From the IMG/VR virus record IMGVR_UViG_3300045988_147489, positions 20,848 to 84,847 of that record: a stretch of 64,000 nucleotides of DNA, one strand, 5' to 3'. Each line of letters opens with the position of its first letter. Positions within the stretch are counted from its first letter, which is position 1. Of this stretch, positions 2,525 to 60,255 are shown one piece after another. This DNA is from a virus. Its lineage: Duplodnaviria > Heunggongvirae > Uroviricota > Caudoviricetes. Below the pieces are notes generated by a model. The model saw only the letters and a list, made by a program, of their open reading frames with translations. It made no database searches and was not told the origin of the DNA. The position numbers and the translations under genes were made by a program.

Positions 2525-2598
2525 CTCAATTGGTAAGTATATACTTACTATTAGCGCAATGAATGCGTAGAATTAACGGAAAAAGGAGTTTTCCATCA

Positions 2599-3345
2599 AT
2601 GTCTAATACCCATGTAAAAAACATCAAACTTGGTGCCTGTAAGGTGTCGTTTGGTGGTGTGGATTTGGGTTACACCAAAGGTGGTGTTCAGGTTGAAATC
2701 GCAACCGAAACGCTGAAAGTGACCGTAGACCAGCTGGGCCAGACCACGATCTCCGAGCTGATCCAGGGCCGCAACATCACCATTACTGCGCCGCTGGCTG
2801 AATCCGTGTTGAAAAACATGGTCGATCTGATGCCAGGTTCCACGCTGAGTTCTGGCGAAGATACCGTAACCATCACGTCTGCGCAGGGAGTGAACCTGAT
2901 CGACGTTGCGAAAGAGTTGGTGCTGACCCCGCAGGATGCGACGGATTATGTTCTGACCATCCCTAAAGCAGCAACCGCGGGTAACTTCACCATGACCTAC
3001 CAGTCTGACGACGTTCGCGTGTTCTCAGTTGAGTTTTCCGCTTACCCGGACGACGCTGGCGTGTTGGGGAAAATGAGCCTCCCAAAGCCGGTTGAGAGCG
3101 TCACGCTGACCCCGTCTTCACCGACCGTAAAAGTGGGCACTAAAGTTCAATTGAGCGCAACCTTCACCCCGGCCGATGCAACCAATAAGACTGGCGTGTG
3201 GAGCTCTGATGCGACTGATAAAGCGACCGTAGATCAGAACGGACTGGTAACTGGTAAAGCTGTCGGTTCAGCCAATATCACCTTCACAACTAATGACGGT
3301 GCCAAGAAGGCGACCAAAGCCGTCTCTGTAACTGCCGCAAGCTAA
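2599..3345 (+). CDS. major tail protein with C-terminal Ig-like (Big_2-type) domain
   Basis: AAGGAG RBS then ATG at 2599; C-terminal segment VTLTPSSPTVKVGTKVQLSATFTPADATNKTGVWSSDATDKATVDQNGLVTGKAVGSANITFTT is a typical bacterial Ig-like fold signature; position before chaperone/tape measure. Confidence 0.8.
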   Translation: MSNTHVKNIKLGACKVSFGGVDLGYTKGGVQVEIATETLKVTVDQLGQTTISELIQGRNITITAPLAESVLKNMVDLMPGSTLSSGEDTVTITSAQGVNLIDVAKELVLTPQDATDYVLTIPKAATAGNFTMTYQSDDVRVFSVEFSAYPDDAGVLGKMSLPKPVESVTLTPSSPTVKVGTKVQLSATFTPADATNKTGVWSSDATDKATVDQNGLVTGKAVGSANITFTTNDGAKKATKAVSVTAAS

Positions 3346-3359
3346 ATTGTGATAACCCA

Positions 3360-3381
3360 AGAGGCCCATGGATGGGCCTCT
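3360..3381 (+). terminator. hairpin downstream of major tail gene
   Basis: AGAGGCCCA-TGGA-TGGGCCTCT perfect 9-bp stem. Confidence 0.45.
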
Positions 3382-3406
3382 GTATGAGTTTAAAAGGATT
3401 TAAACC

Positions 3407-3724
3407 ATGACCAAATTACTCGATCTCGACTCCATTCTGCCGCCGAAAAAAAGCATCAAATTTGGTGGCAAAGAATATCCCATCGTTGAAATGACCGTCG
3501 GCCTCTTTGTTTCCATCAAGCAGATGGAAGGCAAAGATCTCATGAACATGTCTCCTGTTGAGCAAGTGACAGCTTATGCAGATCTGGTTCGTAAGGTTAT
3601 CCCTTCAGTACCTGACGAAGTTCTTGAAAAACTGACTGTTCCGCAACTCCAGCAGATCTTCACCTTCGCTATGGAAGTGATTGATGAAGAAAACGAAAAA
3701 GCGGCTGGCGAAGGGGCAAAGTAA
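3407..3724 (+). CDS. tail assembly chaperone (gpG-like)
   Basis: 105-aa acidic ORF immediately upstream of tape measure gene. Confidence 0.65.
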   Translation: MTKLLDLDSILPPKKSIKFGGKEYPIVEMTVGLFVSIKQMEGKDLMNMSPVEQVTAYADLVRKVIPSVPDEVLEKLTVPQLQQIFTFAMEVIDEENEKAAGEGAK

Positions 3725-4074
3725 TTTCCCGCGATGAATCCGGGACAAGGACCGTCTCAATAGATCTCGGATTCTATTTCAGTCGTGTAGTTGCTCACTA
3801 CGCCGTGTCGCCATTAGAGCTACTGAACGTTCCTCTCACGATGTTCTGGATGCTCAGTCGCAATATAGACCGTCTGCGTGCGGAAGAGGATGTCCGCAAC
3901 TTACAAGTCGCTCGTGCGTCCCAGGCGGATGGCGAGGCTGTGAAGGCGTTCATGGAGGGTTTGCAACTCAGGATTGGAAGACCAGTCGTAACAGATAAAG
4001 TCTACGATCCAAGCCAGGATAAGGCAGACCCTGACGCCAAAGAGCAACTGATGCAAATATTTGGCAGAGGATGA
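3688..4074 (+). CDS. gpT-like extension, probably expressed as a G-T fusion by -1 frameshift
   Basis: -1 frame relative to the G-like ORF is open from 3688 to the TGA at 4072-4074; A-rich GAAAAAG at 3695-3701 lies in the overlap. Confidence 0.5.
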   Translation, partial: RKRKSGWRRGKVISRDESGTRTVSIDLGFYFSRVVAHYAVSPLELLNVPLTMFWMLSRNIDRLRAEEDVRNLQVARASQADGEAVKAFMEGLQLRIGRPVVTDKVYDPSQDKADPDAKEQLMQIFGRG

Positions 4075-4081
4075 CAAGGGA

Positions 4082-8981: not shown

Positions 8982-9067
8982 CTTGCGACTATAGATAAGT
9001 AATCACTTATCTATTATCATATATCAACACCACAGGATGTGACGTTGAGTTTTTCAAGGATGAAGTG

Positions 9068-11155: not shown

Positions 11156-11171
11156 GGGAAGTTTTTTGAAC

Positions 11172-14100
11172 ATGGATCAGTTCAAGAAAAAGAGATTGCC
11201 CCTCCTGATTGCGGGAGCGGGCGGCAAAAAGAGCTCAGGCTCAAGCCGTACACCAGTTGAAGCGGATGATACCGTTAATTCGCGGGCCATGGCGTCTATC
11301 CTCGATCTGCTCGGGGAAGGTGTTGTTGGTGGGCTTATTAACGGTGCTAAATCTATCTTCATCGATGGCGTGGCGCTGGAGAACGAAGACGGATCATTCA
11401 ACTATTCCGGTGTAACCTGGGATTTCCGGGATGGTTCACAAGACCAAAGCCCGATGCCTGGTTTCGATTTTGTCGAAACGCCAAAGGCCGTTAACACACA
11501 GCTGAAAACCACAAACGCGGTTACGGTCGCCATCGATAACGACGACGCTGATCGTGTCCGAGTGATCATGAAGTTCCCGTCGCTGCGTAGCATTGACAAG
11601 AAAACAGGGGACACAAACGGTACTTCTGTCCAGTTTAAGTTCCAGCTGGCCAATGGCAATGGCTCTTTCTATGACGTGATTGCTACAGGTGAGAGCAGCT
11701 CTGACGTGAAGCTGACTGCGAAAAAGACTGGTGTCTACTACCGCAGTTACGAAATCCAACTTCCAAAGCCTGGGCGCGCCTATAAAGTGCGCGTGCTTCG
11801 TCTCTCCGCCGACAGCAACGATCAGTATCTCTTTAACGATACCTGGGTCGACTCTATCGGTGAGATCGTTGACACCCCAATGAACTACCCGAACTCCGTT
11901 CTGGTTGGCCTTAAGGTTAACTCTGAGCAGTTTGGTAGCTCTATGCCGTCACGTTCGTATCTTATCCGTGGCCTCAAAATCCGTGTGCCTTCGAATTATG
12001 ATGAAAATACGAACACTTATAACGGCGTTTGGGATGGAACCTTTAAGCTTCTGTCGTCTTCCAACCCTGCCTGGATTCTGTTCGATCTGCTGACCAATGC
12101 TCGTTATGGCCTCGGCAAATTTGTTTCGGAGTCAATGATTGACCTTGGTCAGCTTTATCAGATCGGTCGCTACTGCGACGAAGAGGTTGATGATGGCTTT
12201 GGCGGCAAAGAAAAACGCTTTGCAATCAACACCCAGATCACCAGTCGTCAGGACGCTTATCGTCTGATTCAGGATATTGCCGGCGCTTTCCGTGGCATGG
12301 TTTTCTGGGCTGGTGGCATGGTGAATATCATGCAGGACAGCCCGTCTGACCCTGTCATGCTGTTTACCAACGCAAACGTAAAAGATGGCCTGTTTACCTA
12401 TAAAGGCTCAGCTCGAAAAGACCGGCCGTCCGTAGCGTTGATCACTTATAACAACAAACAAGACGGCTATAAGCAGAACGTTGAGTATGTTGAAGATCAG
12501 GAAGCGATGGCCCGATACGGGGAGCGCAAGACCGAGGCCGTTGCGTTCGGATGCACCAGCCGAGGTCAGGCTCATCGTGTAGGTTTGTGGCTGCTCTATA
12601 CCGCGCGTATGGAGTCAGACATGATCACCTTTACCGCGGGCCTGGACGCCTCGTTCCTGATGCCGGGCGAAACCGTTCTGATCCAGAACAAATATCGTGC
12701 CGGCAAACGCAATTCCGGTCGCATTGTCTCTTTCACCAAAAACAGCATCACCCTCGATGCACCTGTCTCTCTGAAAAAGAGCGGTAGCTTCATCCGTATC
12801 ATCAATCAGGAAGGCAAAATCGTTGAGCGAGACATCAACGAGACCGGCGACAACATCACTAAAGTTACCTTCAAGACGGCGTTGGCCACAGCCGAACAAC
12901 CAGTAGCGAATGGCGTCTGGACGATCACCGAACCAGACCTTGTTCCAATGCGGGCGCGCGTTGTCGCTATCGCGCAAGGTGAAACCCCGGGGTCGTTTGA
13001 TATCACGGTGGTGCAGAACAATGCATCTAAGTACCAGGCGATTGATAACGGGGCCGCGCTCGTTCCAGAAAATACGACGGTTCTTGATCCCACATATTCC
13101 AAACCGAGCAATCTGGTCATCTCAGAAGGCACCTATCTGTCCAGTCCGGGCAACTTGTCCGTGAAGCTGATGCTTGCCTGGGAAGGTAAATCACCAGAAT
13201 ACTGGGTCAGCTGGCGCCGCTCCGACGAGGGCAACGTCTCCAACTGGCAATCTGCCCGCGCCACGGAAGAACAATATGAAATCGTCAATGTTGCCGAAAA
13301 TGGGCGATATGACTTCCAGCTGTATTCCGTTTCCTTCGGCGGCAAAAAATCCGAGATCATTACTGCTGTCTATCAGGTAAAAGGCACGATGACGCCGCCA
13401 GGGGCGCCCACATCACTCACCGCGGTGGGGGATTATCGTAACGTGGTATTGAATTGGGTTAACCCTGATTCAGTCGACCTCGCGCAGATCAACGTGTATG
13501 CGTCCAAAACAAATAAGCTGGACACCGCAACACTCATTGCTCAGGCTGCAACAACGACTTTCACTCACGCTGGCCTGGGTGACAACGAGACCTGGTATTA
13601 CTGGATTCGTGCGGTAAACAAACGTGGGATGGTAGGCCAGCCGAACTCGAACCTCGGTACAGAGGCCACCACTCGCGACGTATTGTCTTTCCTGAAAGAT
13701 AAGATCACATCTTCTGAACTCGGCAAGGAGCTGCTCGACGAAATCGACAGCAAAGCCACTCAGGAGGCGGTAGACAACGCCATTGGAGAGGTTCAGAACT
13801 CAGTCAACGAGTCTATCCAGCAAGTTGAAAACGATCTGGCGCAAACCTCCTCCGAAATTAAGGCGCAGGTTGACTCTGTCAATCAGTCGCTGAAAGAGGA
13901 TATAAAGACCGTCAATCAGACGATTGTTGACAACATCGATGCCGTCAACCAGACGATCAATACCAACATCTCCAACGTAAACAGCCAAATTGAAGCTGCA
14001 AAACAGTCTATTAAAGACGGCGACGCGGCTCTGTCGCAGGAGATTAAGAATGCGCAGTCATCACTGACAACGTCGCTGTCCCAGACCAGCAAAGATCTGA

Positions 14101-17100
14101 CTGCGGCCATTCAGAAAGAGACGAATGACCGTATTGCAGATGTTAATGACGCAGCCAAGCAAGCGGCCGACCAACTGCTGAGCGCGAAGAATGAGCTGAA
14201 AACCTCTATCGATAGCTTGTCTGAGGTTGTGACCTCCGGTGACGAAAACCTCGCGCGACAGATCTCGCAGATTGCCGCTGGCACAGGGGAACAGTTTGAC
14301 TCTCTGAAAATCTGGTATTTCGACCAGGACGCTGAAGGCTGGACGGAAGATGATAATGGCTACACGCCAATGAGCGTCACCAGCGATGGCTGGCTGAAAG
14401 CGAACAATCCGACCTCAACCTGTCGTTCCCCTAACGGCTTGACGATCGATGCCCATGCTTATCGTTTCATTAAGATGCGCATTAAAAAGGTTGGCAACCC
14501 AACCTGGAACGCCAAAATGTTCTGGATCGGCGCTGATGAAACCGGCTGGAATGCTGGTCGCTCCGTGGTTATCAATGAACCGGAATACGATGACAAGGGT
14601 ATTGCGATTCTGACCCTGCACGACCTTGAGTGGCGAGATTCGACAACGATTCGTCGTTTCCGCTTCGATTTCACTTCAGGTCAGGATACGGACAATTACC
14701 TGTTATTCGACTGGATTGCTGTCGGTCGACCGACGCCGGGCGCAGGCATGGCCGCGTTACAGGAAGAGCAGCAGGCTCGTGCGAATGCAGATACCGCCGA
14801 AGCGCAGGCGCGCAGCACATTGGCTGCACAAATCCGCGGTTCATCTGAAAGCGGAAATCTGGACGACATTCGTTCTGGCCTGATCTATCAGGAGAAAAAT
14901 GCTCGTATCACCGCCGATGCTGCGGAAGCGAGTGCGCGTGAATCCCTGCAGACTGAATTCAACAGAAACAAAGCCTCTGTTGCAGAAGAGCTGCATACGC
15001 TGTCCACTGAACAAGCTTCCCAGGCAAGCAAGATTACCGGGTTGCAAACAAGCCTTGGCCAGAAGGCCGATGCCAGTGCAGTACAGACAATTTCCCAGAA
15101 GGTTGAAGAGCAGGGCAACACCCTTAAATCACAAGGTGCGGCATTGTCTACGCTGGATAATCGCGTAGGAAGTGTTGAGTCTGGTGTATCTGCGAATAGC
15201 AAGGCGATCACGGGTCTGCAGTCGACCGTAACCCAGCAGGATAAAACCCTTAGCAGCCAGAGTGAAAGCATCACCACCCTGAATAACTCGCTGAGCGATA
15301 TCCAGAGCGATACCGATACTGCCAAAAGCAACCCGAGTAATTTGCTGGTTAACGCCTCCTTTGAGCGTGACCTGGCAGGGTGGTCTGCAGGGAACAGCGT
15401 ATCCAATGTTATCAAAGCGAGCGCGCCCCATTCTGGTAGCAAAATTCTTGTTTGCGCCGCTGGCACGGTGCAAATCACGCAATCTGTAAGCGTCGTCGAA
15501 GGGCGGACATACAAGCTGTCCTCTTTTGTGCGGTGCACCACTGATGCGGTGATCAGCAGCCCTGGCAACAACAAACTGCGTATTGGCGCGGCTACGTTGC
15601 TCAAAGAGATTCCGATCCGTCCGGAGAATCTGCCCAAAGATGAAACATGGAAGGAGGTCTCTGATACCTGGAAGGCGACGCTGACCGGTAAAGTTGACGT
15701 ATCGATCATGTCTTCTCTCAAAACCGGTTCTCAGTACTTCGATGATGTTGGTTTTGTTGACGTCACTGATGCTCTGGCGATTGAGGCGAACGCCAGTGCC
15801 ACCAATGCTTTGACCTCTCGGGTATCGTCTGTTGAGGGCACCATCACAAGTCAGGGGCAACAGATCACTTCGATGCAGAACAGTATCAAGAACAAAGCTG
15901 ACGCCTCAGCTGTGACTAATCTGGCAAACCGCGTAACTGCTGCCGAAAATCAGATCTCCAGCCAGTCCCAGAGCATCACCAGCCTGTCAAATTCGCTGGA
16001 TAACGCCAATGCTGATGCGGATGCCTCGAAAGCGATCATCGGCAACATGCTCAAAAACAACTCTTTTGAACGTGGTTTCGAAGGTTGGGAGTATGTTGGT
16101 TGGACTCTGCTGGAGGCCCAAAACCCCAAATCGGGGAAATACATCATCCAGGCGGGCAAACTGGCCTCTGGCGGTGACTCGGGCTGCAACCAAACGATCG
16201 AGCTGCAGGCTGGCAAGACTTATCGTATCGGCGCATGGGTTCGCAAATCCGCTGACTTCGCGATTAATAATGCCGGCAACAACAAAATTAGCCTTCGAAA
16301 CGCAGATCTTACGCCAATAAAGGATATCCCGATCACTGGCGCCGGGCTGTCGACGAACTGGGCGCTTATTAGCGGCGAGTATACGCCAGCCAAAACCGCG
16401 AGCGTGGTTGTGTCTCTGCGCGCAAGTGTCGCTTCAGGCTATATGTATCTCGATGACGTCTTCTGCGTTGACGTGAGCAATGAGAAAGCGATTGATGCGA
16501 CGTCCAATGCGTTATCAACCCTCAACAGCACCGTGACCCAGCAGGGAAAAGACATTACGTCTAACTCCAACAGCATCACTTCGCTGTCAAACCAGATGGT
16601 TAACGGCCGCCAGAACATGTGGGTGCGTAGCGTATACAACGTACAACTGGCGAACAATACCACTGAGCCGACCTTTAGCGATATCAACGGTAAGGCGCCA
16701 ATCTCGATCGATGAGGTTCCTGACGCGGCAAAACTGGACTTTGCGAGCGCCGGCAGTTACGTGATCGCGCATTACAAAGCCTTCGTGAAAGTCAATGCTG
16801 ATACCACCATCACTATGGCACCAGGGTCTCGTGTTTTTGATGATACGGGCGCCGTGTACGTGAACGGTGTTAGGGTTGCCTTTGGTAATGCGAGCTGGAA
16901 TACGGTTAGCTTTGATCTGAAAGCTGGCTGGAGCACGGTTGAGTTCTTGGTGAACCAATGGACTGGTCAGGCTTACATTAACCTCGGCTTTAAACTGTCC
17001 GAGAAGGTAGCCCAGCTGAATTCTGCTCTTGGGATGAACGCGCTTTCGAATGCCATTAGCGCCGTCACCTCAAACGTCAGCACCGTAGGTGATCGCGTCA

Positions 17101-24826: not shown

Positions 24827-24916
24827 TTCAATTCGTATGTAAGTGCTTACCTACAATTAGTTTCTAATTTATGATATAAATCTGCCATCCGATTTGACTT
24901 ATTCATGGAGGAAGAC

Positions 24917-29929: not shown

Positions 29930-30045
29930 TCTTTTAAAAGACACCACCAGAACAACTCCCTTCCGTTTCCACTTCCAAAAACTGCCACCAGTCGCTATCA
30001 TCCGCTCATTGTGATAAGTAAGTAACTACCTACCAGGTGAGCCAC

Positions 30046-33433: not shown

Positions 33434-33508
33434 CAATCACCTTTAAAATAAGTAGATGATTACTTATCTTTCTGTGAGAATACTTTCATCTGTTAGCTAG
33501 GAGTTGGT

Positions 33509-34291: not shown

Positions 34292-34346
34292 TCTCTCCGC
34301 GCGTCGTTTTTTACGCAAATAACGATAGGTAAGTACAAGATTATTT

Positions 34347-36959: not shown

Positions 36960-37195
36960 AAACATCATGATAAGTATTTACTTACTTATCTTTTATGTAT
37001 AAGATGACTTTGTTTTCGTTGAGACGCGACTGTTTGAACTTAAATACAAGTGCAAACGAAGAAGTCTATCTGGCAGTAGCCTAATAAGCCAAACACCAGC
37101 GAGGTCAGTTTCCAGCCTCGTTACCGAAATGGGACACACTGAGCGAGTGTGATTGCAGAACGCAGGAGGGAACATTCATGTTCCCTCCGATGAAG

Positions 37196-37992: not shown

Positions 37993-38073
37993 TTGAGAAC
38001 ATTGGCGTAACGGGTTCATATCCCAATTTATGAATATAATGTTGCGTTGCAGCGTGACAACCAGTGTTCTCAA
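37993..38073. repeat. long-range inverted repeat C immediately 3' of tRNA-Thr
   Basis: TTGAGAACATTGG ... CCAGTGTTCTCAA (1 mismatch). Confidence 0.5.
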
Positions 38074-38542: not shown

Positions 38543-38658
38543 GATTTGTTGACACTTAGTTATATTCACGTATCGTTTTATCGCTTTGATCCGAGGCAGC
38601 GTTAGACTGCCTTCATGTTCCTGATTAGATCGCAGCAGTTAAACATGGAGACAAATTA

Positions 38659-39213
38659 ATGAAGAAGTGCCATCTCAATATTTTCGCATCTCTAATAATT
38701 GCGTTAACACTAACAGGGTGTAACGAATCTGAAATAGATGAATTAACGTTAATAGGCAAAGATAAAAGTGAACTTGAACAAAATTATAAAGCCCAATTCA
38801 AGAAGCTAACACAAAATGTTGAAGTGTTTATTCTTCAAGATAAAAATAGTCCGACTGAAAAAGAACCGCATACGAATGGCAACCTGATCGACGGAAAAGT
38901 CGAAATGTCATTAACCAGTAATGTTGGTAAGTATACATTCATCCAGATAAGTGAAATGCTGACAAAGGAGTACGGAAAACCCGTTGCTACAAAAGATCGT
39001 GTTTTTAACAGAGAAGCAGTATCTGGCATGGACTGTATTGAAACTAAAACTTGTGGAGCTGGTAAATATTATGAAATCTTTCGAGGGAAGGATAGATTGA
39101 TTATGGTGTCAAACGGTGCCGGTCTTTTACACGAAAAGGAAGGTGTAACACTACTCACCATCACCGATAAACAATTTAAATTTTCTCGTTTAGAAGAAGA
39201 TAAAATAAAATAA
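38659..39213 (+). CDS. putative lipoprotein (AT-rich cargo gene)
   Basis: signal peptide ending in lipobox LTGC; visibly AT-rich codon usage unlike neighbours. Confidence 0.5.
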   Translation: MKKCHLNIFASLIIALTLTGCNESEIDELTLIGKDKSELEQNYKAQFKKLTQNVEVFILQDKNSPTEKEPHTNGNLIDGKVEMSLTSNVGKYTFIQISEMLTKEYGKPVATKDRVFNREAVSGMDCIETKTCGAGKYYEIFRGKDRLIMVSNGAGLLHEKEGVTLLTITDKQFKFSRLEEDKIK

Positions 39214-39420
39214 TGACAGGGGCGTATACGCCCCTATCTAAAATTTGACATTAAACATATATTGCATCTGGTATCAGCAATTTTTGTGCGCTATGTAAGT
39301 CCTTACCTGCAATCAGTCTCATAAATATCGGATTTTACGTAGCGTACCATCGTTACAGCAAGCATCAAATTATTCACTGACATTTATGCGCTGAAAACAG
39401 CGTTACTTACCGTAAAATAA

Positions 39421-40793: not shown

Positions 40794-40932
40794 TAAATAT
40801 TAACTAAATTAAGTTGTGATTAACAGGCAAGTTTACGATGTATTGCAGACATTAAATAGGTTTTTACTTACCTATCTTTTATAGTAATATTTATTTTCTG
40901 GTTAAGTAACACATAATTATTATGAGGTAAAC

Positions 40933-41388: not shown

Positions 41389-42492
41389 ATGAAAAATAGC
41401 TTTGACAGAGCACGCGCTGCGGAGAACACCTCAAAAGAGGCGATTGAGTATCTCGAAAGAGCATCTCAAATGCAGGCCGTTATGATCTCGCAGGTCAGCA
41501 ATGACATGAGATTCTCGGACGCATTCATGTTATTCACTCGCTTATCTCTGCTGATAACAAGACGTCGGCCAGAGATCGCTGTTCATTGTATTTTGATACA
41601 TGTTTTGCCGCACATTGCCGATGTAAAAGTAAGTGACATTAATAGGTTCATGGTGAACCAACTGGTCAACCCACTAATACTGGATGGCAAAATTGTTATG
41701 GGCCGCCGCGTTTTCTCTCTGATGAAGCAGTTCCTTAGCTGGTGCGCCTTCCAGGGGATGATAGACGTGTCACCGTTAAACGATATGTCACTAAACAAAG
41801 TTGCCGGTGGCGCAAAGCCTACACCTCGCGAGCGGAAGCTGACCGACGCAGAGGTATGGGTGTTCTGGAATATATGGGACTACTTCAATGTGTGCGCTGG
41901 TACAAAATGGGCGGCCAGGCTGTGTCTTGTATCCGCAAGACGACCTGACGAAGTACTGCGGGCTAAAAAAAGTGAGTTCAATCTTAAGCGTGGGGTTTGG
42001 AATCAAGGCAAGAGGAACAAATCTGCCCGTGAGCATTCTCTGCCTTTAAGCTCATTAATGCGCACTTGTATTGAAGAGTTGTTCGAATATGGTAAAGACA
42101 GCCAGTGGCTCGTGCCTTCGAATAAAAAAATCGGGAAAGACCTTCCTATGTCTAAAGTGGCAATAGCCCAGGCATTACGTCGTATTCTGGAACGACCAGA
42201 ACTGATGGAGCTTGAGCCATTTACACCCCGAGATTTGCGCCGTACTGCGCGTAGTTACTTCCCAGCATTAGGCATAAGCCAGGAGGTATCACGTAAAATC
42301 ATGAACCACAGTCTTGAGGGGATAGATCGGGTCTACGACCGGCACGATTATATGGACGAGATGCGAGACGCCTTAGAAAGTTTCTCGACGTACATCGCAT
42401 CAATCGTAGAGCAACCGGATTTAGACGAAATTGACCACAAATTTAAGGGAGATCGTCTATCAACAGAGCTTATTCGTGTAAATTTTTCATAG
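41389..42492 (+). CDS. tyrosine recombinase / phage integrase family protein
   Basis: C-terminal catalytic-domain pattern with conserved Arg/His/Tyr (LRRTARSYF, HSLEGIDRVYDRHDY). Confidence 0.75.
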   Translation: MKNSFDRARAAENTSKEAIEYLERASQMQAVMISQVSNDMRFSDAFMLFTRLSLLITRRRPEIAVHCILIHVLPHIADVKVSDINRFMVNQLVNPLILDGKIVMGRRVFSLMKQFLSWCAFQGMIDVSPLNDMSLNKVAGGAKPTPRERKLTDAEVWVFWNIWDYFNVCAGTKWAARLCLVSARRPDEVLRAKKSEFNLKRGVWNQGKRNKSAREHSLPLSSLMRTCIEELFEYGKDSQWLVPSNKKIGKDLPMSKVAIAQALRRILERPELMELEPFTPRDLRRTARSYFPALGISQEVSRKIMNHSLEGIDRVYDRHDYMDEMRDALESFSTYIASIVEQPDLDEIDHKFKGDRLSTELIRVNFS

Positions 42493-42873
42493 AGACTTTA
42501 TGGCCTCAACAACCTTTTGTGATGCGCCTTTCTCTTTACCGAATCGCTCGTTATATGCAGCAAGAACCTGTTTTTCGTCCTCGTTAAGAGGAGCAGTGCC
42601 TTCTTTGTATAAAAATGCTGCGAGTTCGGGTTGGCGTTCTTCCAGCACCATCATCATAAGACGACTTGGCTCAATGCCCAGTGCCAGCGCCAGCGGACGA
42701 ACCTTATCGATAGGCAAAGGAATTTTGCCGCTTTTAATTAAAGAAAGGTTGTTGGCGTTTTTATACCCAATTGTTTTGGCTATCTGGGCCTGGCTCATAG
42801 GTGAGGATTCAATCAACCCTGCGATAAAAGCAGCATAGCGACTTTCTATAAATTCAATCTTGTTGTCAGACAT
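42487..42873 (-). CDS. HTH (XRE/Cro-CI-like) transcriptional regulator
   Basis: helix-turn-helix signature QAQIAKTIGYKNANNLSLIKSGK; 3' end overlaps integrase 3' end by 6 bp. Confidence 0.6.
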   Translation of the reverse strand: MSDNKIEFIESRYAAFIAGLIESSPMSQAQIAKTIGYKNANNLSLIKSGKIPLPIDKVRPLALALGIEPSRLMMMVLEERQPELAAFLYKEGTAPLNEDEKQVLAAYNERFGKEKGASQKVVEAIKSL

Positions 42874-43123
42874 TGTTACAACCTTTGCGCGTTCAATTCT
42901 CTCTGGTAAGTGCTTACCGATATTACATCAAAGGTTAGGGTTGTAAAGCTATTATCATTTTTTCGATAGGCACTTAAAAGACCGGTTAAAGGCCATTGCA
43001 CGGAGAAAAATTGGCCCAAAACAGGTAAGAAAATTAACTTGCATATGATATGAATGTATTCAGTATTGATATAAATTTTAGTAGTATTCCTTACCATAGT
43101 ATAAGTTAGAATGGATTGATTGA

Positions 43124-43336
43124 ATGAACACCACTATTTCCAGCCTAATCGCTCTTGAGATCGGACACGTACAGAAATTAGCTGATGAGTGTGTAGCTGA
43201 CATCCTCACCGATCTACCGAATGAGCAGATTCAGGTTGGTGTGAATGACACAACTGGCTTTATATTCGAACTTAACAACAAACGCTTCACGCTTCTCAAT
43301 ATCGGCTCCGGGTCTTTAGCCGTCAGAATCTGTTAA
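43124..43336 (+). CDS. hypothetical small protein
   Basis: 70-aa ORF; followed by 9-bp-stem hairpin CTGCGCGAA...TTCGCGCAG at about 43350-43383. Confidence 0.3.
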   Translation: MNTTISSLIALEIGHVQKLADECVADILTDLPNEQIQVGVNDTTGFIFELNNKRFTLLNIGSGSLAVRIC

Positions 43337-45543: not shown

Positions 45544-45638
45544 ACAAAACAGCCTTAATGATAAGTTACTACTTACGATAGATGATGATATATTTATATA
45601 AGAAGTTGAACGCTCATTAGAGAACAAAGGAAAAACGC

Positions 45639-51130: not shown

Positions 51131-51247
51131 TTTTTGATAGATAATAAGTAAGTACTGATCTATCATTTAACAGCTCGAAAGAGCCACGAATGAACGAAAG
51201 CCCAACGCGCATAGCGCCATCGGCCAAATCACAACAAGGAGAAACAC

Positions 51248-54623: not shown

Positions 54624-54628
54624 ACACA

Positions 54629-54653
54629 AGGCGTCCACAGGACGCCTTTTTTA
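54629..54653 (+). terminator. rho-independent terminator (repeated family)
   Basis: AGGCGTCC-ACAG-GGACGCCT then TTTTTT. Confidence 0.75.
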
Positions 54654-54715
54654 TCTCTTGAAAATATATAAGTACTTACTTATTATTTTCGCATAACAAC
54701 CACATAGGAAAACAC

Positions 54716-56267: not shown

Positions 56268-56322
56268 TCGCCTATTCATAACTAACAAAATAAGTAAACA
56301 CTAACCACAAAAGGAAAAACAC

Positions 56323-56598: not shown

Positions 56599-56813
56599 GT
56601 TTACAGTAAAGTTTATATAAGTTAGTATCTACCTATCATGAAGATTTTTATTGAATACTTGTTACTCATCGTTTCAATAGCTTTTGTCATCGACTGCATT
56701 TTCACTGGTGTCATTCGTAAAGTCTTTTCCCCGGTGCACGACGTAGTCATAAACGCTTTGGCTATCGTGCTCGTATTTAATTCAGCATTTGATGTAATCA
56801 AAGAGGTGGCAGC

Positions 56814-57361: not shown

Positions 57362-57407
57362 ATGCAAACTGACTGCGGCACGTTCCGCAGTCATATTTCA
57401 TAGTCGT

Positions 57408-57941
57408 CACCGCTGACAGCATACACAATCAACTACCGCTGATAGCATATCGAGAGTCTATCTCACCGCTCACAGCATACTTTACTCGATTTTTTACCGC
57501 TGACAGCATACTTAAGAAATTGCATGAATAATGTGTCCCGGTATGGGTATAACCAGAACAAAATTACCGCTGGCAGCATACGAATGTCTGACATATACCA
57601 TTAATTACCGCTGATAGCATATCCAAACAAAAATTCCTCAATAAAACACCGCTGACAGCATACGTTCTATCAGGGAGTAGCAGGCAATAAATGCCTTTCA
57701 CTACAAGCAATCAGCGCAATAGCAATAGAATGTTAGTGAGCGCAAACCTATATGGAATGCACTCTTCGAGGTTAGTAACCACTGGGGAGGTATGACAGAG
57801 CATTGAGTGGTGATAGATGATTTACCGCTCACAGCATACGTTCATCTCACTATACCGCTGGTAGCATATCTTTAACCGTTCACAGCATACTTTTCAGAAA
57901 AATAGCCGCTGATAGCATACATTTCACCGCTGACAGCATAT
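57408..57941 (+). repeat. iteron array downstream of repA (incA-like control locus): 12 copies of about 17-bp repeat, consensus (T/C)ACCGCTGACAGCATAC
   Basis: copies at about 57408, 57434, 57464, 57495, 57565, 57606, 57647, 57823, 57853, 57874, 57904, 57925; same orientation; two clusters separated by about 160 bp. Confidence 0.8.
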
Positions 57942-59035
57942 CAAAGCAGTTTGAGACTATTGGAAAGGATCTCAATCATCTTGATATTTTCAGGCGTCAA
58001 ATTCTGCGAAAGTTCGGTTATCTTGTTGATAATGTTCTGTTTGGCATCAATTTCCCCAGCTTTCTCATCTGGTTTTTTGGGTTCGATGTCTTCAGGTTTT
58101 GGCGGTGCGACTTTGAGTTTTGGATTGCGGCTGTGAATCTGGATATAGATCGACCGCCCACGCTTAATCTCGCTGTATTCGAGATAGCCCAAATCTTGGA
58201 GAGCTTTTAAGCCGTTACGTATAGTCTGATTCTGCGAGCTGACATTCCTGCTACTCAAATTGAGTCGCGCACGCAATCGAGCAAGCGATACCGGCGCAGG
58301 CTTGGTAGGAAGACTTTCGATGAAGGTGTACAGAGCCTGTGCTGTTTCTTTGCGTGGTAGCTTATTGATAACCTTTAACTGCAAAAGAACCTTATGGTCA
58401 AAGCGATATAGTTCGGCCAGCTTCGGTTCTGCATAGAACACCACCGTATCTTTCTGCTCGTTGTAGTCCACGCTATTGATGAGGTGCACCATCAGAAGCG
58501 AGATCTTGTTAGAGCCGTCGACGTTCTTTTCTTCATACGTTCTCTGGAAAGACAGAGTTGTACGCATGATCTTCAAAAGACTGTTTGTAAGCCGGTCGCG
58601 GAGTGTTTTGCGGATCTGTGACGATGGATAGCCACAAAACTTAGCAAATTTCGTGATGCTTAACTCGACACGACCGTTAGGTTCGCCGTATTCTGCCAGC
58701 GAACGCACAACGCCCACCCACGTTTTGAAATCATGATCCATGTCGAGACGAGGACCGGTTATCTTGATATCGGAATAGCCTTCAGAACGGGCTACTTCGA
58801 GCTGGACAAGCTCCTTTGAAGCATCAATCTCATTTGGCTTGTTACGTTTACTGTATTTTGTTCCCTTAAGCGTGGGGACGAACAACCCCAGTCGCATCAA
58901 CGCAATTGGTTGGACTGTATTGTTGCTATTAGGGACAAGTTCCCCTGTGTACAATTCAAGGGAACCTTCTTCAAAGTTGTCGATGTTATCTTCTACTTCT
59001 TTGTTATTTTTACCTTTTTTATTTTTTGTGGACAT
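57941..59035 (-). CDS. repA: plasmid replication initiator RepA (iteron-binding)
   Basis: gene bracketed by iterons; start set at the internal ATG (MSTKNKKG...) because the upstream extension is translated from iteron DNA; AAAGG RBS. Confidence 0.7.
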   Translation of the reverse strand: MSTKNKKGKNNKEVEDNIDNFEEGSLELYTGELVPNSNNTVQPIALMRLGLFVPTLKGTKYSKRNKPNEIDASKELVQLEVARSEGYSDIKITGPRLDMDHDFKTWVGVVRSLAEYGEPNGRVELSITKFAKFCGYPSSQIRKTLRDRLTNSLLKIMRTTLSFQRTYEEKNVDGSNKISLLMVHLINSVDYNEQKDTVVFYAEPKLAELYRFDHKVLLQLKVINKLPRKETAQALYTFIESLPTKPAPVSLARLRARLNLSSRNVSSQNQTIRNGLKALQDLGYLEYSEIKRGRSIYIQIHSRNPKLKVAPPKPEDIEPKKPDEKAGEIDAKQNIINKITELSQNLTPENIKMIEILSNSLKLL

Positions 59036-59044
59036 GTGGACACC

Positions 59045-59147
59045 TTTGTCATTCAACCGCTGACAGCATACTTGATTTGCCGCTGACAGAATACCAAAAA
59101 CAGTTGGCAGCATACGGTGAACCGCTGACAGACTATCAATTACCGCT
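59045..59147 (+). repeat. origin iterons upstream of repA (4 full copies plus one partial)
   Basis: AACCGCTGACAGCATAC, TGCCGCTGACAGAATAC, partial TTGGCAGCATAC, AACCGCTGACAGACTAT, TACCGCTGACAGCATAC. Confidence 0.8.
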
Positions 59148-59196
59148 GACAGCATACATGAACATGGCTTCAGACCAGTCGTGGCGCGGCTTACAG

Positions 59197-59273
59197 CGAT
59201 CGGGGATCTTATTTGATCTATACAAGGATCTATCTATGGATCTCTTTATTAGGATCTATCCTGTGGATATGTG
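59197..59273. promoter_or_regulatory. origin-associated GATC cluster (six sites, mostly in GGATCT heptamers) plus DnaA-box-like TGTGGATAT
   Basis: GATC at about 59197, 59205, 59216, 59227, 59239, 59253; TGTGGATAT at 59263-59271; layout resembles P1 oriR. Confidence 0.55.
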
Positions 59274-59356
59274 AATAATTAAAACAGGCATTTACTACCT
59301 TCGGCGCACCTGGTGGGTTATCGTTGCCTCGGCTAACAATCACAGAAAAATGACAT

Positions 59357-60001
59357 ATGGATCTAAAACGCACGCGCTGGGTTCGTCGTCTTGAAGACGG
59401 CTCCTACACTATCGAATCAAATTCCAACCTGAATAAGCAGAAGTTGCTTTGTGACATCTGCGGTATAGCGGCGAAGTGCCCGATCTACGAAACCAGAATT
59501 AAACTTGATAAGGCTGGTGTGAATTTTCATTTAAACAGTTGCATCAGGTACGTTCCATTACTCGCATTTCGTAAACCGATCATCGGATTGGATGCTCCCT
59601 ACTTCAACACACTCCGTTCAGGTGTGACGTGGCGAGATCGTTTATCACCAGACAAGCTGATTTGCCTCGTATCCGCAGACACAGGGAAAATCATCCGTTT
59701 TGGGAAAGTAGACAAGGTTTACTCAGGCCCAGTAGACGAAATGTTGCGGAAACACAGCCGGTTTAATCATCTCTGTATGGGTGGTGAGAAAATCGAGAAG
59801 GTAGAAGAAGTGATCCGCAAATCCTACGGACACTTTCTGACCAAAGATAGCCTGCTCACCGCAATCTACATCAGACATGTAAAACGTGAGTTCGACCTCG
59901 AATACCACAGCGAAGAAGAGCTTAACCTTGTTGACCCACGTCCAAAAGCTGGCGTCATAAGCATAAACGCAGCGCGTAAAAAGCCCACTGACGCGCTGTA
60001 A
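59357..60001 (+). CDS. hypothetical protein
   Basis: ORF from track; followed by hairpin GGCGTAGAT...ATCTACGCC at about 60020-60040. Confidence 0.45.
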   Translation: MDLKRTRWVRRLEDGSYTIESNSNLNKQKLLCDICGIAAKCPIYETRIKLDKAGVNFHLNSCIRYVPLLAFRKPIIGLDAPYFNTLRSGVTWRDRLSPDKLICLVSADTGKIIRFGKVDKVYSGPVDEMLRKHSRFNHLCMGGEKIEKVEEVIRKSYGHFLTKDSLLTAIYIRHVKREFDLEYHSEEELNLVDPRPKAGVISINAARKKPTDAL

Positions 60002-60255
60002 CCCTCCAGATCGTATATTGGCGTAGATAGAATCTACGCCTCCTCAAAATAGCTCTCATAGCGTTCTACAGTGATCCTGTCTTATTTTTAGTCATACAGA
60101 CAAGCAAAGTTGCTCCACAATAAATAGGTATATACTTACTTATAAATTTTGTATATTAAGACGCTCGTTTCATTCCTAACATACCGTTATGCATAGTTGT
60201 TTACCTTCTCATTGCTCTTAAAATTTGTATCAAAATAACCACAAAGGAAAAACAC

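What the first reader, a model, noticed from the sequence alone, without database searches (positions are those of the whole stretch)
2533..60145. Recurring palindromic motif (ATAAGTA-N-TACTTAT and the ATAGGTA/TACCTAT variant) upstream of many genes
Near-palindromic AT-rich sites occur in intergenic regions just upstream of start codons. Examples: 2533-2548 (GTAAGTATATACTTAC, perfect), 8993-9012, 24838-24849, 29895-29910 (centre of a 55-bp palindrome), 30013-30033, 33447-33467, 36969-36990, 40858-40879, 45560-45585, 51139-51167, 54667-54684, 56612-56635, 60125-60145. The spread across structural, lysis and replication modules suggests a shared operator for a phage-encoded regulator or a phage-specific promoter element.
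Basis: seen in the sequence. Interest (0 to 1): 0.6.

Follow-up and report, generated by a model that had tools for sequence, protein, structure and literature searches.

The report
Dispersed operator of phage-plasmid repressor
A 20-bp palindrome recurs about 16 times in the gaps between lytic genes of this SSU5-like E. coli phage-plasmid, and is most likely the binding site through which the element's own helix-turn-helix repressor keeps those genes silent while it lives as a plasmid.

Summary
The window is an SSU5/pSLy3-type E. coli phage-plasmid, 97-98% identical to phages CMS-2020a and Cyrano. The recurring unit is a 20-bp palindrome, ATARGTAAGT|ACTTACYTAT, built of NTAN tetramers.

All 14 hits at >=16/20 are intergenic, none lies in 59 kb of coding DNA, and 0.03 are expected from intergenic composition. 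About 30 sites per genome sit at orthologous gaps in Salmonella SSU5, Klebsiella pJN2-26 and Y. pestis pMT1. Positions are kept even in a relative with about 50% protein identity.

Half-site positions vary independently, so this is a DNA site for a dimer, not an RNA hairpin. One site overlaps the start of the promoter of the HTH gene (42487-42873) in every lineage checked. An Acinetobacter relative with a changed recognition helix uses GTCA tetramers instead of GTAA, with three copies between its HTH and cro-like genes. A second E. coli lineage shows a similar but less clean shift.

Some sites fill the 17-bp spacer of near-consensus sigma-70 promoters that published RNA-seq shows to be silent in a lysogen.

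Best reading: dispersed operators of an XRE-type immunity repressor. This resembles P1 C1 operators and mycobacteriophage stoperators. No binding has been demonstrated. A P1 Lpa-like activator box remains the main rival.

The parts
2529..2552 (.). Site between the tail-completion and major tail genes: ATTGGTAAGT|ATATACTTAC (16/20). It contains the perfect 16-mer at 2533-2548.
   Evidence: Orthologous sites at SSU5 9067, pJN2 47136 and Cyrano 9018, and in the distant contig L037 at 6622.
8991..9014 (.). Site after the tape-measure / gpM genes, in two overlapping registers (17/20 each): ATAGATAAGTAATCACTTATCTAT.
   Evidence: Orthologues at SSU5 15589, pJN2 53621 (19/20) and L037 2016.
24835..24854 (.). 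Site between the tail fibre gene and the holin gene: GTATGTAAGT|GCTTACCTAC (16/20).
   Evidence: Orthologues at SSU5 27474, pJN2 69442 and Cyrano 26657.
30014..30033 (.). Site 12 nt upstream of the first gene of the replication module: ATAAGTAAGT|AACTACCTAC (18/20).
   Evidence: Orthologues at SSU5 33600, pJN2 74983 and Cyrano 31296. The downstream gene CYRAN_31 is at background in the lysogen.
33448..33467 (.). Site after the primase gene: ATAAGTAGAT|GATTACTTAT (17/20).
   Evidence: Orthologues at SSU5 38178, pMT1 and Cyrano 34730.
34325..34344 (.). Site 3 nt upstream of ORF 34347: ATAGGTAAGT|ACAAGATTAT (16/20). The left half is strong.
   Evidence: Orthologues at SSU5 39087, pJN2 80738 and Cyrano 35607.
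36970..36989 (.). Site ATAAGTATTT|ACTTACTTAT (18/20). It is followed by TATAAG and a conserved 750-nt non-coding stretch, then the tRNA cluster.
   Evidence: Orthologues at SSU5 41773, pJN2 83366 and pMT1.
39291..39310 (.). Weak site CTATGTAAGT|CCTTACCTGC (15/20), between ORF 38659-39213 and ORF 39465-40793.
   Evidence: Not examined in relatives.
40856..40875 (.). Site upstream of the glutaredoxin gene: ATAGGTTTTT|ACTTACCTAT (17/20).
42902..42921 (.). Immunity-region site TCTGGTAAGT|GCTTACCGAT (15/20; core GGTAAGTGCTTACC). It overlaps the -10/+1 of the HTH gene promoter.
   Evidence: The same site lies 46-56 nt upstream of the HTH ATG in about 75 IMG/VR loci whose HTH is 56-100% identical, and also in pMT1.
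42920..42947 (-). Sigma-70-like promoter of the HTH gene: TTTACA-16-TAATAT.
   Evidence: Both hexamers are conserved in Klebsiella pJN2-26.
42487..42873 (-). Candidate binder: a 128-aa XRE/Cro-CI-type HTH protein. The recognition helix is N41-K47, preceded by K38-N39-A40.
   Evidence: - Pfam HTH_19 E=7.8e-4, below the curated cut-off; PHROG 8 'transcriptional regulator' 1.3e-11.
- AlphaFold2 model pLDDT 81. Nearest folds are C.BclI, C.AhdI, HigA, lambda and 434 repressors.
- Found in 865 plasmids, almost always beside the integrase.
- Expressed in the LF82 lysogen at 96 against a median of 9.8.
43124..43336 (+). Divergent 70-aa cro-like ORF at the head of the CobT/CobS/PolIII early operon. Possible second ligand of the same sites.
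   Evidence: phrog_2627, function unknown. Conserved position in pHCM2, pMT1, Serratia and Acinetobacter elements. Rises from log2 4.3 to 10.8 in macrophages.
45557..45580 (.). Degenerate site between the CobT-like and CobS-like genes: ATAAGTT-AC-TACTTAC (13/14 as 7-2-7; 14/20 as 20-mer).
   Evidence: Orthologues at SSU5 45124, pJN2 93368, pMT1 and Serratia L275 13128.
51144..51163 (.). Site upstream of the gp32-like SSB gene: ATAAGTAAGT|ACTGATCTAT (18/20).
   Evidence: It lies inside the promoter-like TAGATA-17-TATCAT at 51138-51166.
54658..54686 (+). Near-consensus sigma-70 promoter TTGAAA-17-TATTAT. Its spacer and the first half of its -10 are the palindrome 54664-54683 (ATATATAAGT|ACTTACTTAT, 18/20). 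It follows a terminator at 54628-54648.
   Evidence: The Cyrano equivalent is TTGAAA-17-TATCAT. Its gene CYRAN_56 is at the read-count floor in LB and rises to log2 7.6 in macrophages, while the upstream gene stays at about 4.
56290..56309 (.). Weak site, essentially a left half-site only: ATAAGTAAAC|ACTAACCACA (14/20).
56612..56639 (+). Promoter-like TTTATA-16-TATCAT enclosing palindrome 56617-56636 (ATAAGTTAGT|ATCTACCTAT, 18/20). The palindrome ends 1 nt before the ATG at 56638.
   Evidence: In Cyrano expression steps up at this site in macrophages (CYRAN_59 4.8 -> CYRAN_60 8.8).
60124..60143 (.). Site upstream of the SbcD-like gene: ATAGGTATAT|ACTTACTTAT (18/20).
   Evidence: Orthologues at SSU5 63080, pJN2 343 (19/20) and Cyrano 63199.

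Best explanation
The motif is the operator of a phage-encoded, two-fold-symmetric DNA-binding regulator. That regulator is most probably a dimer of the 128-aa XRE-type HTH protein encoded at 42487-42873, the immunity repressor of this SSU5-like phage-plasmid.

Each half-site reads ATARGTAAGT. About 16 copies lie in this window and about 30 in a whole genome. They sit in the gaps between lytic transcription units (head, tail, lysis, replication, recombination, nucleotide metabolism) and are absent upstream of the plasmid-maintenance genes.

**Proposed mechanism, all inferred**
- In the plasmid-prophage state the repressor occupies these sites.
- Where the palindrome fills the 17-bp spacer of a sigma-70 promoter (54658-54686, 51138-51166, 56612-56639), binding excludes RNA polymerase.
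- At the repressor's own promoter it covers -8..+12 and gives negative autoregulation.
- At sites with no recognisable promoter it may act as a roadblock or as a looping/cooperativity partner.

**Shown here:** the sites, their enrichment, symmetry, conservation and lineage-specific variation, and their position in promoters.

**Inferred:** who binds, and that binding represses.
For: 1. **A real, specific element.**
2. **A DNA site, not RNA.** Pair 4/17 gives G-C 16, A-T 16, A-C 16, G-T 12, which is independent assortment. Overall G-T/T-G total 60 against A-C/C-A 47. Three of five strong sites fold no better than shuffles as RNA.
3. **Deep conservation.** About 30 sites per genome at orthologous gaps in SSU5, pJN2-26, Cyrano and pMT1, with diverged flanks. 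The terL|portal, pre-major-tail and post-tape-measure positions are kept in a contig sharing only 37-58% protein identity, which uses the variant TTAAGTAAGTACTTACTTAA.
4. **Link to the HTH gene.** A site overlaps the -10/+1 of its promoter in the window, pJN2, pMT1 and about 75 IMG/VR loci. In the Acinetobacter element three sites lie between the HTH and cro-like genes.
5. **Co-variation.**
   - E. coli, Klebsiella, Yersinia/Salmonella and Serratia (46% identity) keep K-N-(A/P)-N-N and the GTAA motif.
   - Acinetobacter (48% identity) has K-R-P-N-V and ATCAGTCAGT|ACTGACTGAT, with 11 hits >=16/20 in 47 kb.
   - An E. coli lineage with K-Y-Q-N-Q-V shows GTATGTAT/ATACATAC enrichment, 7 intergenic vs 0 coding in 20 kb. 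Same host, different motif, which argues against a host factor.
   - The varying residues 39, 40 and 42 flank or start the modelled recognition helix 41-47.
6. **Repressor geometry.** The palindrome fills a 17-bp spacer of good promoters. In Acinetobacter the equivalent is TTGAAA/TTTAAA-17/18-TATACT.
7. **Published LF82/Cyrano RNA-seq (PMC9928086, S1 table).**
   - The HTH gene is expressed at 96 against a median of 9.8.
   - 19 of 20 genes immediately downstream of sites are at background in LB. This includes CYRAN_56, behind TTGAAA-17-TATCAT, which is at the floor (4.99).
   - In macrophages at 6 h, step-ups occur exactly at sites 57446, 59399, 9018 and 3527.
   - The 14 lysogen-expressed genes (toxin-antitoxin pairs, par-linked genes and others) and repA (133) have no strong site.
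8. **SSU5.** It lacks the HTH gene but is a clean 7.5-kb deletion of the immunity region relative to pHCM2, with flanks 95-97% identical. This parallels lytic D29, described as a deletion derivative of a temperate parent (PMC5712189).
Against: - No binding data exist.
- Only 3 of about 16 window sites, and 2-4 per genome, lie in a promoter that a consensus scan recognises.
- Several sites sit in very tight gaps or just before terminator-like hairpins, where repression of initiation makes no sense and a roadblock role is only conjecture.
- The window's immunity region has one clear site rather than a lambda-like operator triplet, and none is obvious at the presumed cro-like promoter.
- In the E. 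coli 'KYQNQV' lineage the site next to the HTH gene stays GTAA-like, and the genome-wide shift affects mainly left halves. That co-variation event is therefore not clean.
- Co-variation rests on two lineage events, and orthologous sites are not independent samples.
- Silence in the lysogen fits an absent activator as well as a bound repressor.
- The HTH signal in Pfam is below the curated threshold.
Confidence: 0.6

Rival explanations
1. The palindrome is an activator box of lytic or late promoters, as in phage P1. There Lpa acts on promoters made of a -10 hexamer plus a 9-bp inverted repeat at about -22, with no -35. An unidentified SSU5-family activator would bind the palindrome and recruit RNA polymerase to the TATNAT formed at its 3' end.
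For: - Most sites lack a -35 but have a -10-like hexamer starting at palindrome position 18 (36/66 with >=4/6, A2 and T6; 21/66 with >=5/6).
- The P1 record annotates '-22 region' boxes, and LPhot is AAGTTACTT, which has the same AAGT..ACTT core.
- P1 has 11 such late promoters (PMC10695390).
- Site positions in the structural module are conserved over deep divergence, as expected for promoters.
- Canonical sigma-70 promoters are scarcer than in shuffles in this DNA.
- Silence in the lysogen and step-ups at sites on partial induction fit this model too.
Against: - -10-likeness is identical on the non-coding strand (36 vs 36), so it is part of the palindrome rather than a directional promoter signal.
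- No Lpa homologue is found in any SSU5-like genome (tblastn E>1).
- Sites precede early as well as late genes.
- One site covers the +1 of the repressor promoter, which is a repressing position.
- Where a -35 exists it is near-consensus with a 17-bp spacer, and such a promoter needs no activator.
- Several sites leave no room for a leader, or are followed at once by a terminator.
Confidence: 0.2
2. The sites are operators, but the ligand is another conserved phage protein. Candidates are the divergent 70-aa cro-like product, the 71-aa CYRAN_37-like protein, or a ParB-N protein acting like KorB. The XRE protein would not be the binder, or would only share the sites.
For: - SSU5 keeps well-preserved sites without the HTH gene.
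- The cro-like ORF is always paired with the HTH gene.
- A site precedes the ParB-N operon (Cyrano 105107, SSU5 99798).
- The 71-aa and Cra-like proteins are conserved in SSU5.
Against: - The SSU5 loss is a recent deletion that also removed the cro-like gene, so SSU5 does not discriminate between HTH and Cro.
- Pfam detects no DNA-binding domain in the 70-aa or 71-aa proteins.
- The helix-3 / motif co-variation points to the XRE protein.
Confidence: 0.12
3. The palindrome is the site of a host transcription factor. From memory it resembles NarL/RcsB/EvgA-type half-sites (TACYYMT heptamers; RcsAB box TAAG-N6-CCTA).
For: The motif is identical in elements of E. coli, Salmonella, Klebsiella and Yersinia, and differs in Acinetobacter. 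The resemblance to the heptamers is recalled, not tested.
Against: - An E. coli lineage with a different HTH helix shows a shifted motif in the same host species.
- The arrangement is everted relative to NarL 7-2-7 sites.
- A site is embedded in the phage immunity switch.
Confidence: 0.04
4. The element acts in RNA, as a hairpin in polycistronic transcripts. It would serve as a processing site or as the target of a translational repressor, for example the FljA-like protein.
For: - Nearly all sites are transcribed in one direction and lie close to ribosome-binding sites.
- A full-length FljA homologue (PF03614, 1e-80) is conserved in the family. FljA-type proteins block fliC mRNA translation (PMC2652032).
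Against: - There is no covariation: A-C is as frequent as G-C, A-U and G-U at the variable pair.
- Predicted hairpins are weak or absent (-0.2 to -2.5 kcal/mol, not better than shuffles) at three of five strong sites.
- No Rfam family is hit.
- Specific bases are conserved, rather than pairing.
Confidence: 0.03

Closest known systems
Phage P1 C1 repressor and its dispersed operators
   Same: A plasmid-prophage in which one immunity repressor controls many operators scattered over about 100 kb, including its own promoter region. The P1 record annotates several C1 operators around c1/coi/lpa.
   Different: P1 operators are asymmetric 17-mers bound by a large C1 protein. No C1 or Coi homologue is present here. 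This motif is a 20-bp palindrome, and the candidate repressor is a small XRE-type HTH protein.
Cluster A mycobacteriophage (L5/Bxb1) repressor 'stoperators'
   Same: Tens of repressor sites lie in short intergenic gaps throughout the genome, including inside late operons where no promoter is evident (PMC9283540 abstract). A lytic relative that has lost the repressor by deletion also exists (D29, PMC5712189; compare SSU5).
   Different: Stoperators are 13-bp asymmetric sites, oriented with transcription and bound by a monomer with two domains. The sites here are symmetric, and no elongation block has been shown.
Lambda/434 CI-Cro switch and restriction-modification controller C-proteins (XRE family)
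   Same: - Predicted XRE fold.
- Divergent repressor / cro-like gene pair.
- Palindromic operator overlapping the repressor's own promoter.
- Three operators between the two genes in the Acinetobacter relative.
   Different: About 30 operators genome-wide instead of 6. There is no peptidase (S24) domain for RecA-mediated cleavage. The half-site is an unusual tetranucleotide repeat with a TA step every 4 bp.
P1 Lpa-dependent late promoters
   Same: An inverted repeat with an AAGT..ACTT core lies between where a -35 would be and a -10 hexamer. It is repeated in front of many lytic operons.
   Different: No Lpa homologue is present. The repeat here is 20 bp, symmetric with respect to the -10-like ends, present before early genes too, and located at a repressing position on the HTH promoter.
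KorB/KorA global regulon of IncP plasmids
   Same: A plasmid-encoded regulator with a dozen or more palindromic operators at or near many promoters of the same replicon (from my own knowledge, not tested here).
   Different: KorB is a ParB-family CTPase. The ParB-N proteins of this family were not linked to the motif beyond one upstream site.

Membership tests
XRE/Cro-CI-type repressor-operator system | The regulator has an XRE-type helix-turn-helix domain. | tested here: met
   - Pfam HTH_19 E=7.8e-4, below the gathering score.
- PHROG 8 'transcriptional regulator' 1.3e-11.
- PDB profile hit 2kpj, E=0.066.
- AlphaFold2 model pLDDT 81 with helices 28-35 and 41-47.
- Top Foldseek hits are all XRE proteins (C.BclI, C.AhdI, HigA, lambda, 434), with TM-to-target 0.6-0.8 but E only about 1e-2.
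- Source names for homologues read 'XRE family transcriptional regulator'.
XRE/Cro-CI-type repressor-operator system | Two-fold symmetric operator, with half-sites that vary independently. | tested here: met
   20-bp palindrome. 479 of 660 half-site pairs are Watson-Crick. Positions 4 and 17 assort independently. Flanks are symmetric, A-rich on one side and T-rich on the other.
XRE/Cro-CI-type repressor-operator system | An operator overlaps the repressor's own promoter, or lies between divergent repressor and cro genes. | tested here: met
   Site 42902-42921 overlaps the promoter at 42947-42920. This is conserved in pJN2, pMT1 and about 75 IMG/VR loci. Three sites lie in the Acinetobacter HTH-cro gap.
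XRE/Cro-CI-type repressor-operator system | The protein binds the operator and represses transcription. | not testable with these tools
   Only indirect evidence is available: helix-3 / motif co-variation and silence of site-bearing promoters in a lysogen.
P1 C1 operator network | A C1-family repressor and an asymmetric 17-bp operator. | tested here: not met
   tblastn of P1 C1 and Coi against six SSU5-like sequences gives E>6. The motif here is palindromic.
P1 C1 operator network | Many operators dispersed over a plasmid-prophage genome. | tested here: met
   About 16 sites in the window and 29-31 sites >=15/20 per complete genome.
Mycobacteriophage stoperators | Numerous repressor sites in short intergenic gaps, including inside operons. 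| tested here: met
   Examples are the terL|portal gap (the site overlaps the terL stop codon in Cyrano and ends 10 nt before the portal ATG), and the gaps at 30014, 34325 and 56617.
Mycobacteriophage stoperators | Asymmetric site in one orientation relative to transcription, with termination of elongation. | tested here: not met
   The site is symmetric. Elongation block cannot be tested here.
P1 Lpa-type late promoter | A -10 hexamer plus an inverted repeat in place of the -35, at fixed spacing and directional. | tested here: inconclusive
   A -10-like hexamer lies at palindrome position 18 in 36/66 sites, but it is equally frequent on the opposite strand. The AAGT..ACTT core is shared with LPhot.
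P1 Lpa-type late promoter | An Lpa homologue is encoded by the phage. | tested here: not met
   tblastn best E = 1.3.
Structured RNA element (processing site or translational operator) | Compensatory changes and a stable hairpin. | tested here: not met

The most novel reading that the evidence does not exclude
The palindrome is a dual-use 'promoter-core operator' that defines every lytic transcription unit of the SSU5 superfamily. Its symmetric TAT-YAT ends would serve as -10 elements, and its body would serve as the docking site both for the immunity repressor during lysogeny and for a still unidentified lytic factor.

In this reading its AAGT..ACTT core is evolutionarily related to P1's Lpa box. 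It would then reveal a common late-promoter logic shared by unrelated enterobacterial phage-plasmids. Immunity specificity would be re-programmable by one base per NTAN tetramer (GTAA, GTCA, GTAT).
Probability: 0.15. Interest if true: 0.7.

Novelty: new variant of a known kind. Interest (0 to 1): 0.5.

Why it matters
SSU5-like phage-plasmids include pHCM2 of S. Typhi, pMT1 of Y. pestis, the pKpn plasmids of Klebsiella, pSLy3/Cyrano of E. coli and the AB group of Acinetobacter. They are common in clinical isolates and carry resistance genes. I found no description of their lysis-lysogeny control in the papers I could search.

If the reading is right, this motif gives three things:
- the complete regulon map of the immunity repressor;
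- a prediction of immunity groups (GTAA, GTCA and GTAT types, tied to residues 39, 40 and 42 of the repressor);
- an explanation of why phage SSU5 behaves as a lytic phage, namely deletion of its immunity region.

It would also extend the 'many operators, some inside operons' strategy beyond P1 and the Cluster A mycobacteriophages, to a small XRE-type repressor in Gram-negative plasmid-prophages. All of this is directly testable with EMSA, ChIP-seq and reporter fusions.

Tried and rejected
1. **EM motif search.** My first EM search drifted to generic AT-richness and was discarded.
2. **'Palindrome + 8 nt + -10' architecture.** It was suggested by 36970, 60124 and 40856, but it is not general. 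No -10 peak appears at offsets 27-30 over 66 sites.
3. **RNA hairpin / FljA-like translational operator.** Rejected on lack of covariation and weak folds.
4. **'HTH cannot be the binder because SSU5 lacks it'**. Withdrawn after finding the protein in 865 plasmids and showing that SSU5 is a deletion derivative of pHCM2.
5. **P1 Lpa/C1/Coi homologues.** None found.
6. **ParB-N proteins as KorB-like binders.** No evidence beyond one upstream site.
7. **Host-factor resemblance (NarL/RcsB/EvgA/Fur).** Recalled from memory only. The arrangement is everted, and the motif shifts within E. coli.
8. **Searching for the HTH of the distant contig 2713896750_000003.** The searches returned only close relatives. 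The genome-contig scan gave 5 loci. The divergent one, from Photorhabdus, was not a complete element and showed no clear motif.
9. **Remote HTH paralogues** (P0067, P0069, P0071, P0079). These lie in unrelated chromosomal contexts and were uninformative.
10. **Literature search for the motif sequence.** It returned only unrelated hits that were not examined. The P1 genome paper PMC523184 is not held.

Full report
**What the window is.** The window has 47.6% G+C. It is 97-98% identical to Escherichia phages CMS-2020a and Cyrano (the pLF82 phage-plasmid), about 80% identical to Salmonella phage SSU5, and about 77% identical to Klebsiella phage-plasmids. It runs from head-tail genes through tail, lysis, partition, replication and recombination genes to the RepA replicon. 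Almost all genes lie on the + strand. In the classification reviewed in PMC11652158 and PMC7969092 it belongs to the SSU5 supercommunity, most likely the pSLy3 group.

- All listed coordinates carry the sequences described.
- 7-mers such as TAAGTAA (15 intergenic vs 3 coding) and ATAAGTA (13 vs 3) are concentrated in the 8% of the window that is intergenic.
- Scoring [AG]TA[AG]GTA-Nx-TAC[CT]TA[CT] for every spacer shows a sharp preference for x=2: 43 hits, 33 of them intergenic. There is an echo at x=6. Other spacers give 12-24 hits that are mostly coding.
- The echo shows the real unit: a 20-bp palindrome ATARGTAAGT|ACTTACYTAT made of NTAN tetramers, with a TA step every 4 bp.
- At >=16/20 the window has 14 hits. 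All are intergenic, and none occurs in 59 kb of ORFs. An order-2 Markov model of the intergenic DNA expects 0.028.
- The pattern tool finds 10 matches at <=3 mismatches against 0.00 in shuffles.
- The ATAGGTA/TACCTAT 'variant' is the R/Y degeneracy at positions 4 and 17.
- The example at 29895 is a separate 55-bp palindrome that recurs three times per genome.
- The site at 45560 is degenerate. Three sites (34325, 39291, 42902) were missed.

**Conservation.** Complete genomes of SSU5, Klebsiella pJN2-26 and Cyrano each carry 29-31 collapsed sites >=15/20. Several in pJN2-26 match 20/20. Sites lie at orthologous gaps while the flanks diverge. A 40-kb segment of Y. pestis pMT1 carries 10.

An IMG/VR contig sharing only 37-58% protein identity with SSU5 has the variant TTAAGTAAGTACTTACTTAA. 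It occurs at the same places: the terL|portal gap, before the major tail gene, and after the tape-measure gene.

**DNA or RNA?** Over 66 sites, the variable pair 4/17 shows G-C 16, A-T 16, A-C 16 and G-T 12, which is free assortment. Overall G-T/T-G total 60 against A-C/C-A 47. As RNA, three of five strong sites fold no better than shuffles, and Rfam finds only tRNAs. The flanks are also symmetric, AAWR on one side and YWTT on the other. This is the signature of a DNA site for a symmetric dimer.

**Relation to promoters.**
- A -10-like hexamer (TAT + 3 nt) starts at palindrome position 18 in 36/66 sites. The mirror hexamer on the other strand is equally frequent at 36/66, so this is part of the symmetry.
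- No -10 peak exists further downstream.
- With the tool's criteria, only 2-4 sites per genome sit in a sigma-70-like promoter reading in the gene direction: 11 on the top strand against 4 on the bottom.
- In the window these are 54658-54686 (TTGAAA-17-TATTAT), 51138-51166 (TAGATA-17-TATCAT) and 56612-56639 (TTTATA-16-TATCAT). In each the palindrome fills the spacer.
- A 17-bp spacer with good hexamers needs no activator. A protein bound there should block RNA polymerase.
- Other sites lie in very tight gaps. One overlaps the terL stop codon and ends 10 nt before the portal ATG in Cyrano. Others lie directly before terminator-like hairpins.

An AlphaFold2 model (pLDDT 81) has helices at 28-35 and 41-47. 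Its nearest solved folds are XRE proteins: C.BclI, C.AhdI, HigA, and the lambda and 434 repressors.

Its promoter on the minus strand (TTTACA-16-TAATAT, 42947-42920) is overlapped from -10 to about +12 by site 42902-42921. This arrangement is conserved in pJN2-26, in pMT1, and in about 75 IMG/VR loci whose protein is 56-100% identical.

The protein is absent from SSU5 but present in 865 plasmids, almost always beside the integrase. SSU5 is a clean 7.5-kb deletion relative to S. Typhi pHCM2. The deletion removes int, the HTH gene and the cro-like gene.

**Co-variation.**
- A syntenic Acinetobacter phage-plasmid has an HTH 48% identical, with K-R-P-N-V in place of K-N-A-N-N. It lacks the GTAA motif and instead has ATCAGTCAGT|ACTGACTGAT, with 11 hits >=16/20 in 47 kb. 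Three copies lie between the HTH and cro-like genes. Several have a right end of TATACT, 17-18 bp from TTGAAA or TTTAAA.
- A Serratia element is equally diverged (46%) but keeps N-P-N-N, and it keeps GTAA sites.
- An E. coli lineage with K-Y-Q-N-Q-V shows GTATGTAT/ATACATAC enrichment (7 intergenic, 0 coding in 20 kb) at orthologous gaps. Its HTH-proximal site stays GTAA-like, and mostly left halves changed.
- The changing residues (39, 40, 42) flank or start the modelled recognition helix.
- This argues for a phage-encoded specificity and points to the XRE protein. It rests on two events, one of them untidy.

**Expression data.** The S1 table of PMC9928086 gives RNA-seq of the LF82 lysogen.
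- The HTH gene (CYRAN_45) is expressed at 96 against a median of 9.8.
- 19 of 20 genes just downstream of sites >=16/20 are at background. CYRAN_56, behind TTGAAA-17-TATCAT, is at the floor (4.99).
- After 6 h in macrophages, expression steps up exactly at sites: CYRAN_55 4.1 -> CYRAN_56 7.6; CYRAN_59 4.8 -> CYRAN_60 8.8; CYRAN_11 6.0 -> CYRAN_12 8.5.
- Genes expressed in the lysogen (toxin-antitoxin pairs, par-linked genes, repA and others) have no strong site.
- A near-consensus promoter that is silent in the lysogen and inducible fits repression. It does not exclude an activator.

**Comparison with known systems.** The closest analogues are P1's C1 operator network and the Cluster A mycobacteriophage stoperators (PMC9283540). 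The molecular type is a lambda/434-like XRE repressor with a divergent cro-like gene.

Membership in the P1 C1 family and in the stoperator family fails on defining features: there is no C1 homologue, and the site is symmetric rather than asymmetric and oriented.

P1's Lpa late-promoter box (AAGTTACTT at LPhot) shares the AAGT..ACTT core and a similar place in the promoter. No Lpa homologue exists in these genomes, and the element here is not directional, so this stays the main rival at about 0.2.

**Verdict.** The finding is a genuine, conserved and strongly non-random regulatory DNA element. The best explanation, with confidence 0.6, is a dispersed operator set for the XRE-type immunity repressor encoded at 42487-42873. 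Binding and repression are inferred, not shown. I found no description of the motif or of the SSU5-family switch in the searchable literature. I rate it a new variant of a known kind, with interest 0.5.

Noticed in passing
window 29875-29929: 55-bp near-palindrome (CCTGCTTCTGTATATAT ... ATATATACGGAAGCAGG) whose centre is AAGT-A-ACTT. It has three copies per SSU5-like genome. One sits at the ends of the linear SSU5 and Cyrano records, just upstream of terS. It could be a pac/cos-linked, centromere-like or origin-like element.
   Followed up: partly
window 36990-37740: About 750 nt without a convincing ORF, between the strong site 36970 and the tRNA cluster. It is 78-81% identical to SSU5 and pJN2-26, as conserved as the neighbouring ligase gene. 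It may be a non-coding RNA or a lytic origin. Rfam at gathering thresholds finds nothing there.
   Followed up: partly
window 37738-38365: Phage-borne tRNA genes Asn(GTT), Tyr(GTA), Thr(TGT) and Ser(TGA). In relatives the variable int/HTH segment begins shortly after this cluster.
   Followed up: partly
window 30797 and 55812: A second recurrent palindromic motif, AAAACAATTTGTTT(AAAA), lies about 20-30 nt upstream of the helicase gene (30830) and ORF 55842. There are three copies per genome in Cyrano, SSU5 and pJN2-26.
   Followed up: partly
window 57404-57921 and 59217-59260: Ten iterons ACCGCTGACAGCATAC lie 3' of repA (57941-59155, minus strand). GGATCTAT (GATC-containing) repeats lie 5' of it. 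This is a P1/IncFIB-like plasmid replicon layout.
   Followed up: partly
window 43046-43087: Two tandem 21-bp repeats (TGATATGAATGTATTCAGTAT / TGATATAAATTTTAGTAGTAT) lie upstream of the cro-like ORF. They could be a second kind of operator or the cro promoter region. They are poorly conserved in pJN2-26.
   Followed up: partly
SSU5 42643-42672 vs pHCM2 (L269): Phage SSU5 lacks a 7.5-kb block present in S. Typhi pHCM2 (phoH, gp49-like, grxA, integrase, HTH, cro-like). The flanks are 95-97% identical. SSU5 therefore looks like an immunity-deletion derivative, analogous to mycobacteriophage D29.
   Followed up: yes
Cyrano 100780-101301 (L009 36090-36611), SSU5 96897-97343, pJN2-26 31722-32252: A full-length homologue of the flagellar phase-1 repressor FljA (PF03614, E about 1e-80) is conserved in the family, outside this window. 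It is probably a lysogenic-conversion gene acting on host fliC mRNA.
   Followed up: partly
window 54699, 56304, 60238: A conserved translation-initiation context, ACCACA(N1-4)GGAAAA(A)CACATG, is shared by three genes that each lie downstream of a palindrome site. It also occurs in Cyrano and twice in SSU5.
   Followed up: no
window 28000-64000: Sigma-70 consensus-like sites are fewer than in dinucleotide shuffles: 20 vs 33.5 +/- 5.5, and 14 vs 23.6 +/- 5.9. This suggests selection against spurious promoters in this long co-directional genome.
   Followed up: no
window 38549-38576 and ORF 38659-39213: The best canonical promoter in 28-47 kb (TTGACA-16-TATCGT) precedes a 184-aa ORF with a lipoprotein-like N-terminus. 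Cyrano encodes a 184-aa protein, CYRAN_43, in the same region but annotated on the opposite strand. If it is the homologue (not tested), it is by far the most expressed gene in the LF82 lysogen, at 7084 against a median of 9.8.
   Followed up: partly
IMG/VR loci L062 7163-7230, L019, L065, L012 2372/4475, L021 11624/11679: Perfect (GTAA)2GTAC(TTAC)2 palindromes also occur in unrelated low-GC viral contigs. In L062 they lie beside a second palindrome, ATCAGTCAGCACTTACTGAT, directly upstream of an 86-aa Cro-like HTH gene and an antirepressor-like gene. In L012 they lie near the terminase genes. Tetranucleotide-repeat operators may be more widespread.
   Followed up: partly
window 11166-23330: A single 4054-aa ORF sits in the tail-fibre position. 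It is matched by a 12-kb 'putative tail fiber' gene in Klebsiella pJN2-26, whereas Cyrano and SSU5 have a 4-5 kb J-like gene plus a separate fibre gene.
   Followed up: no
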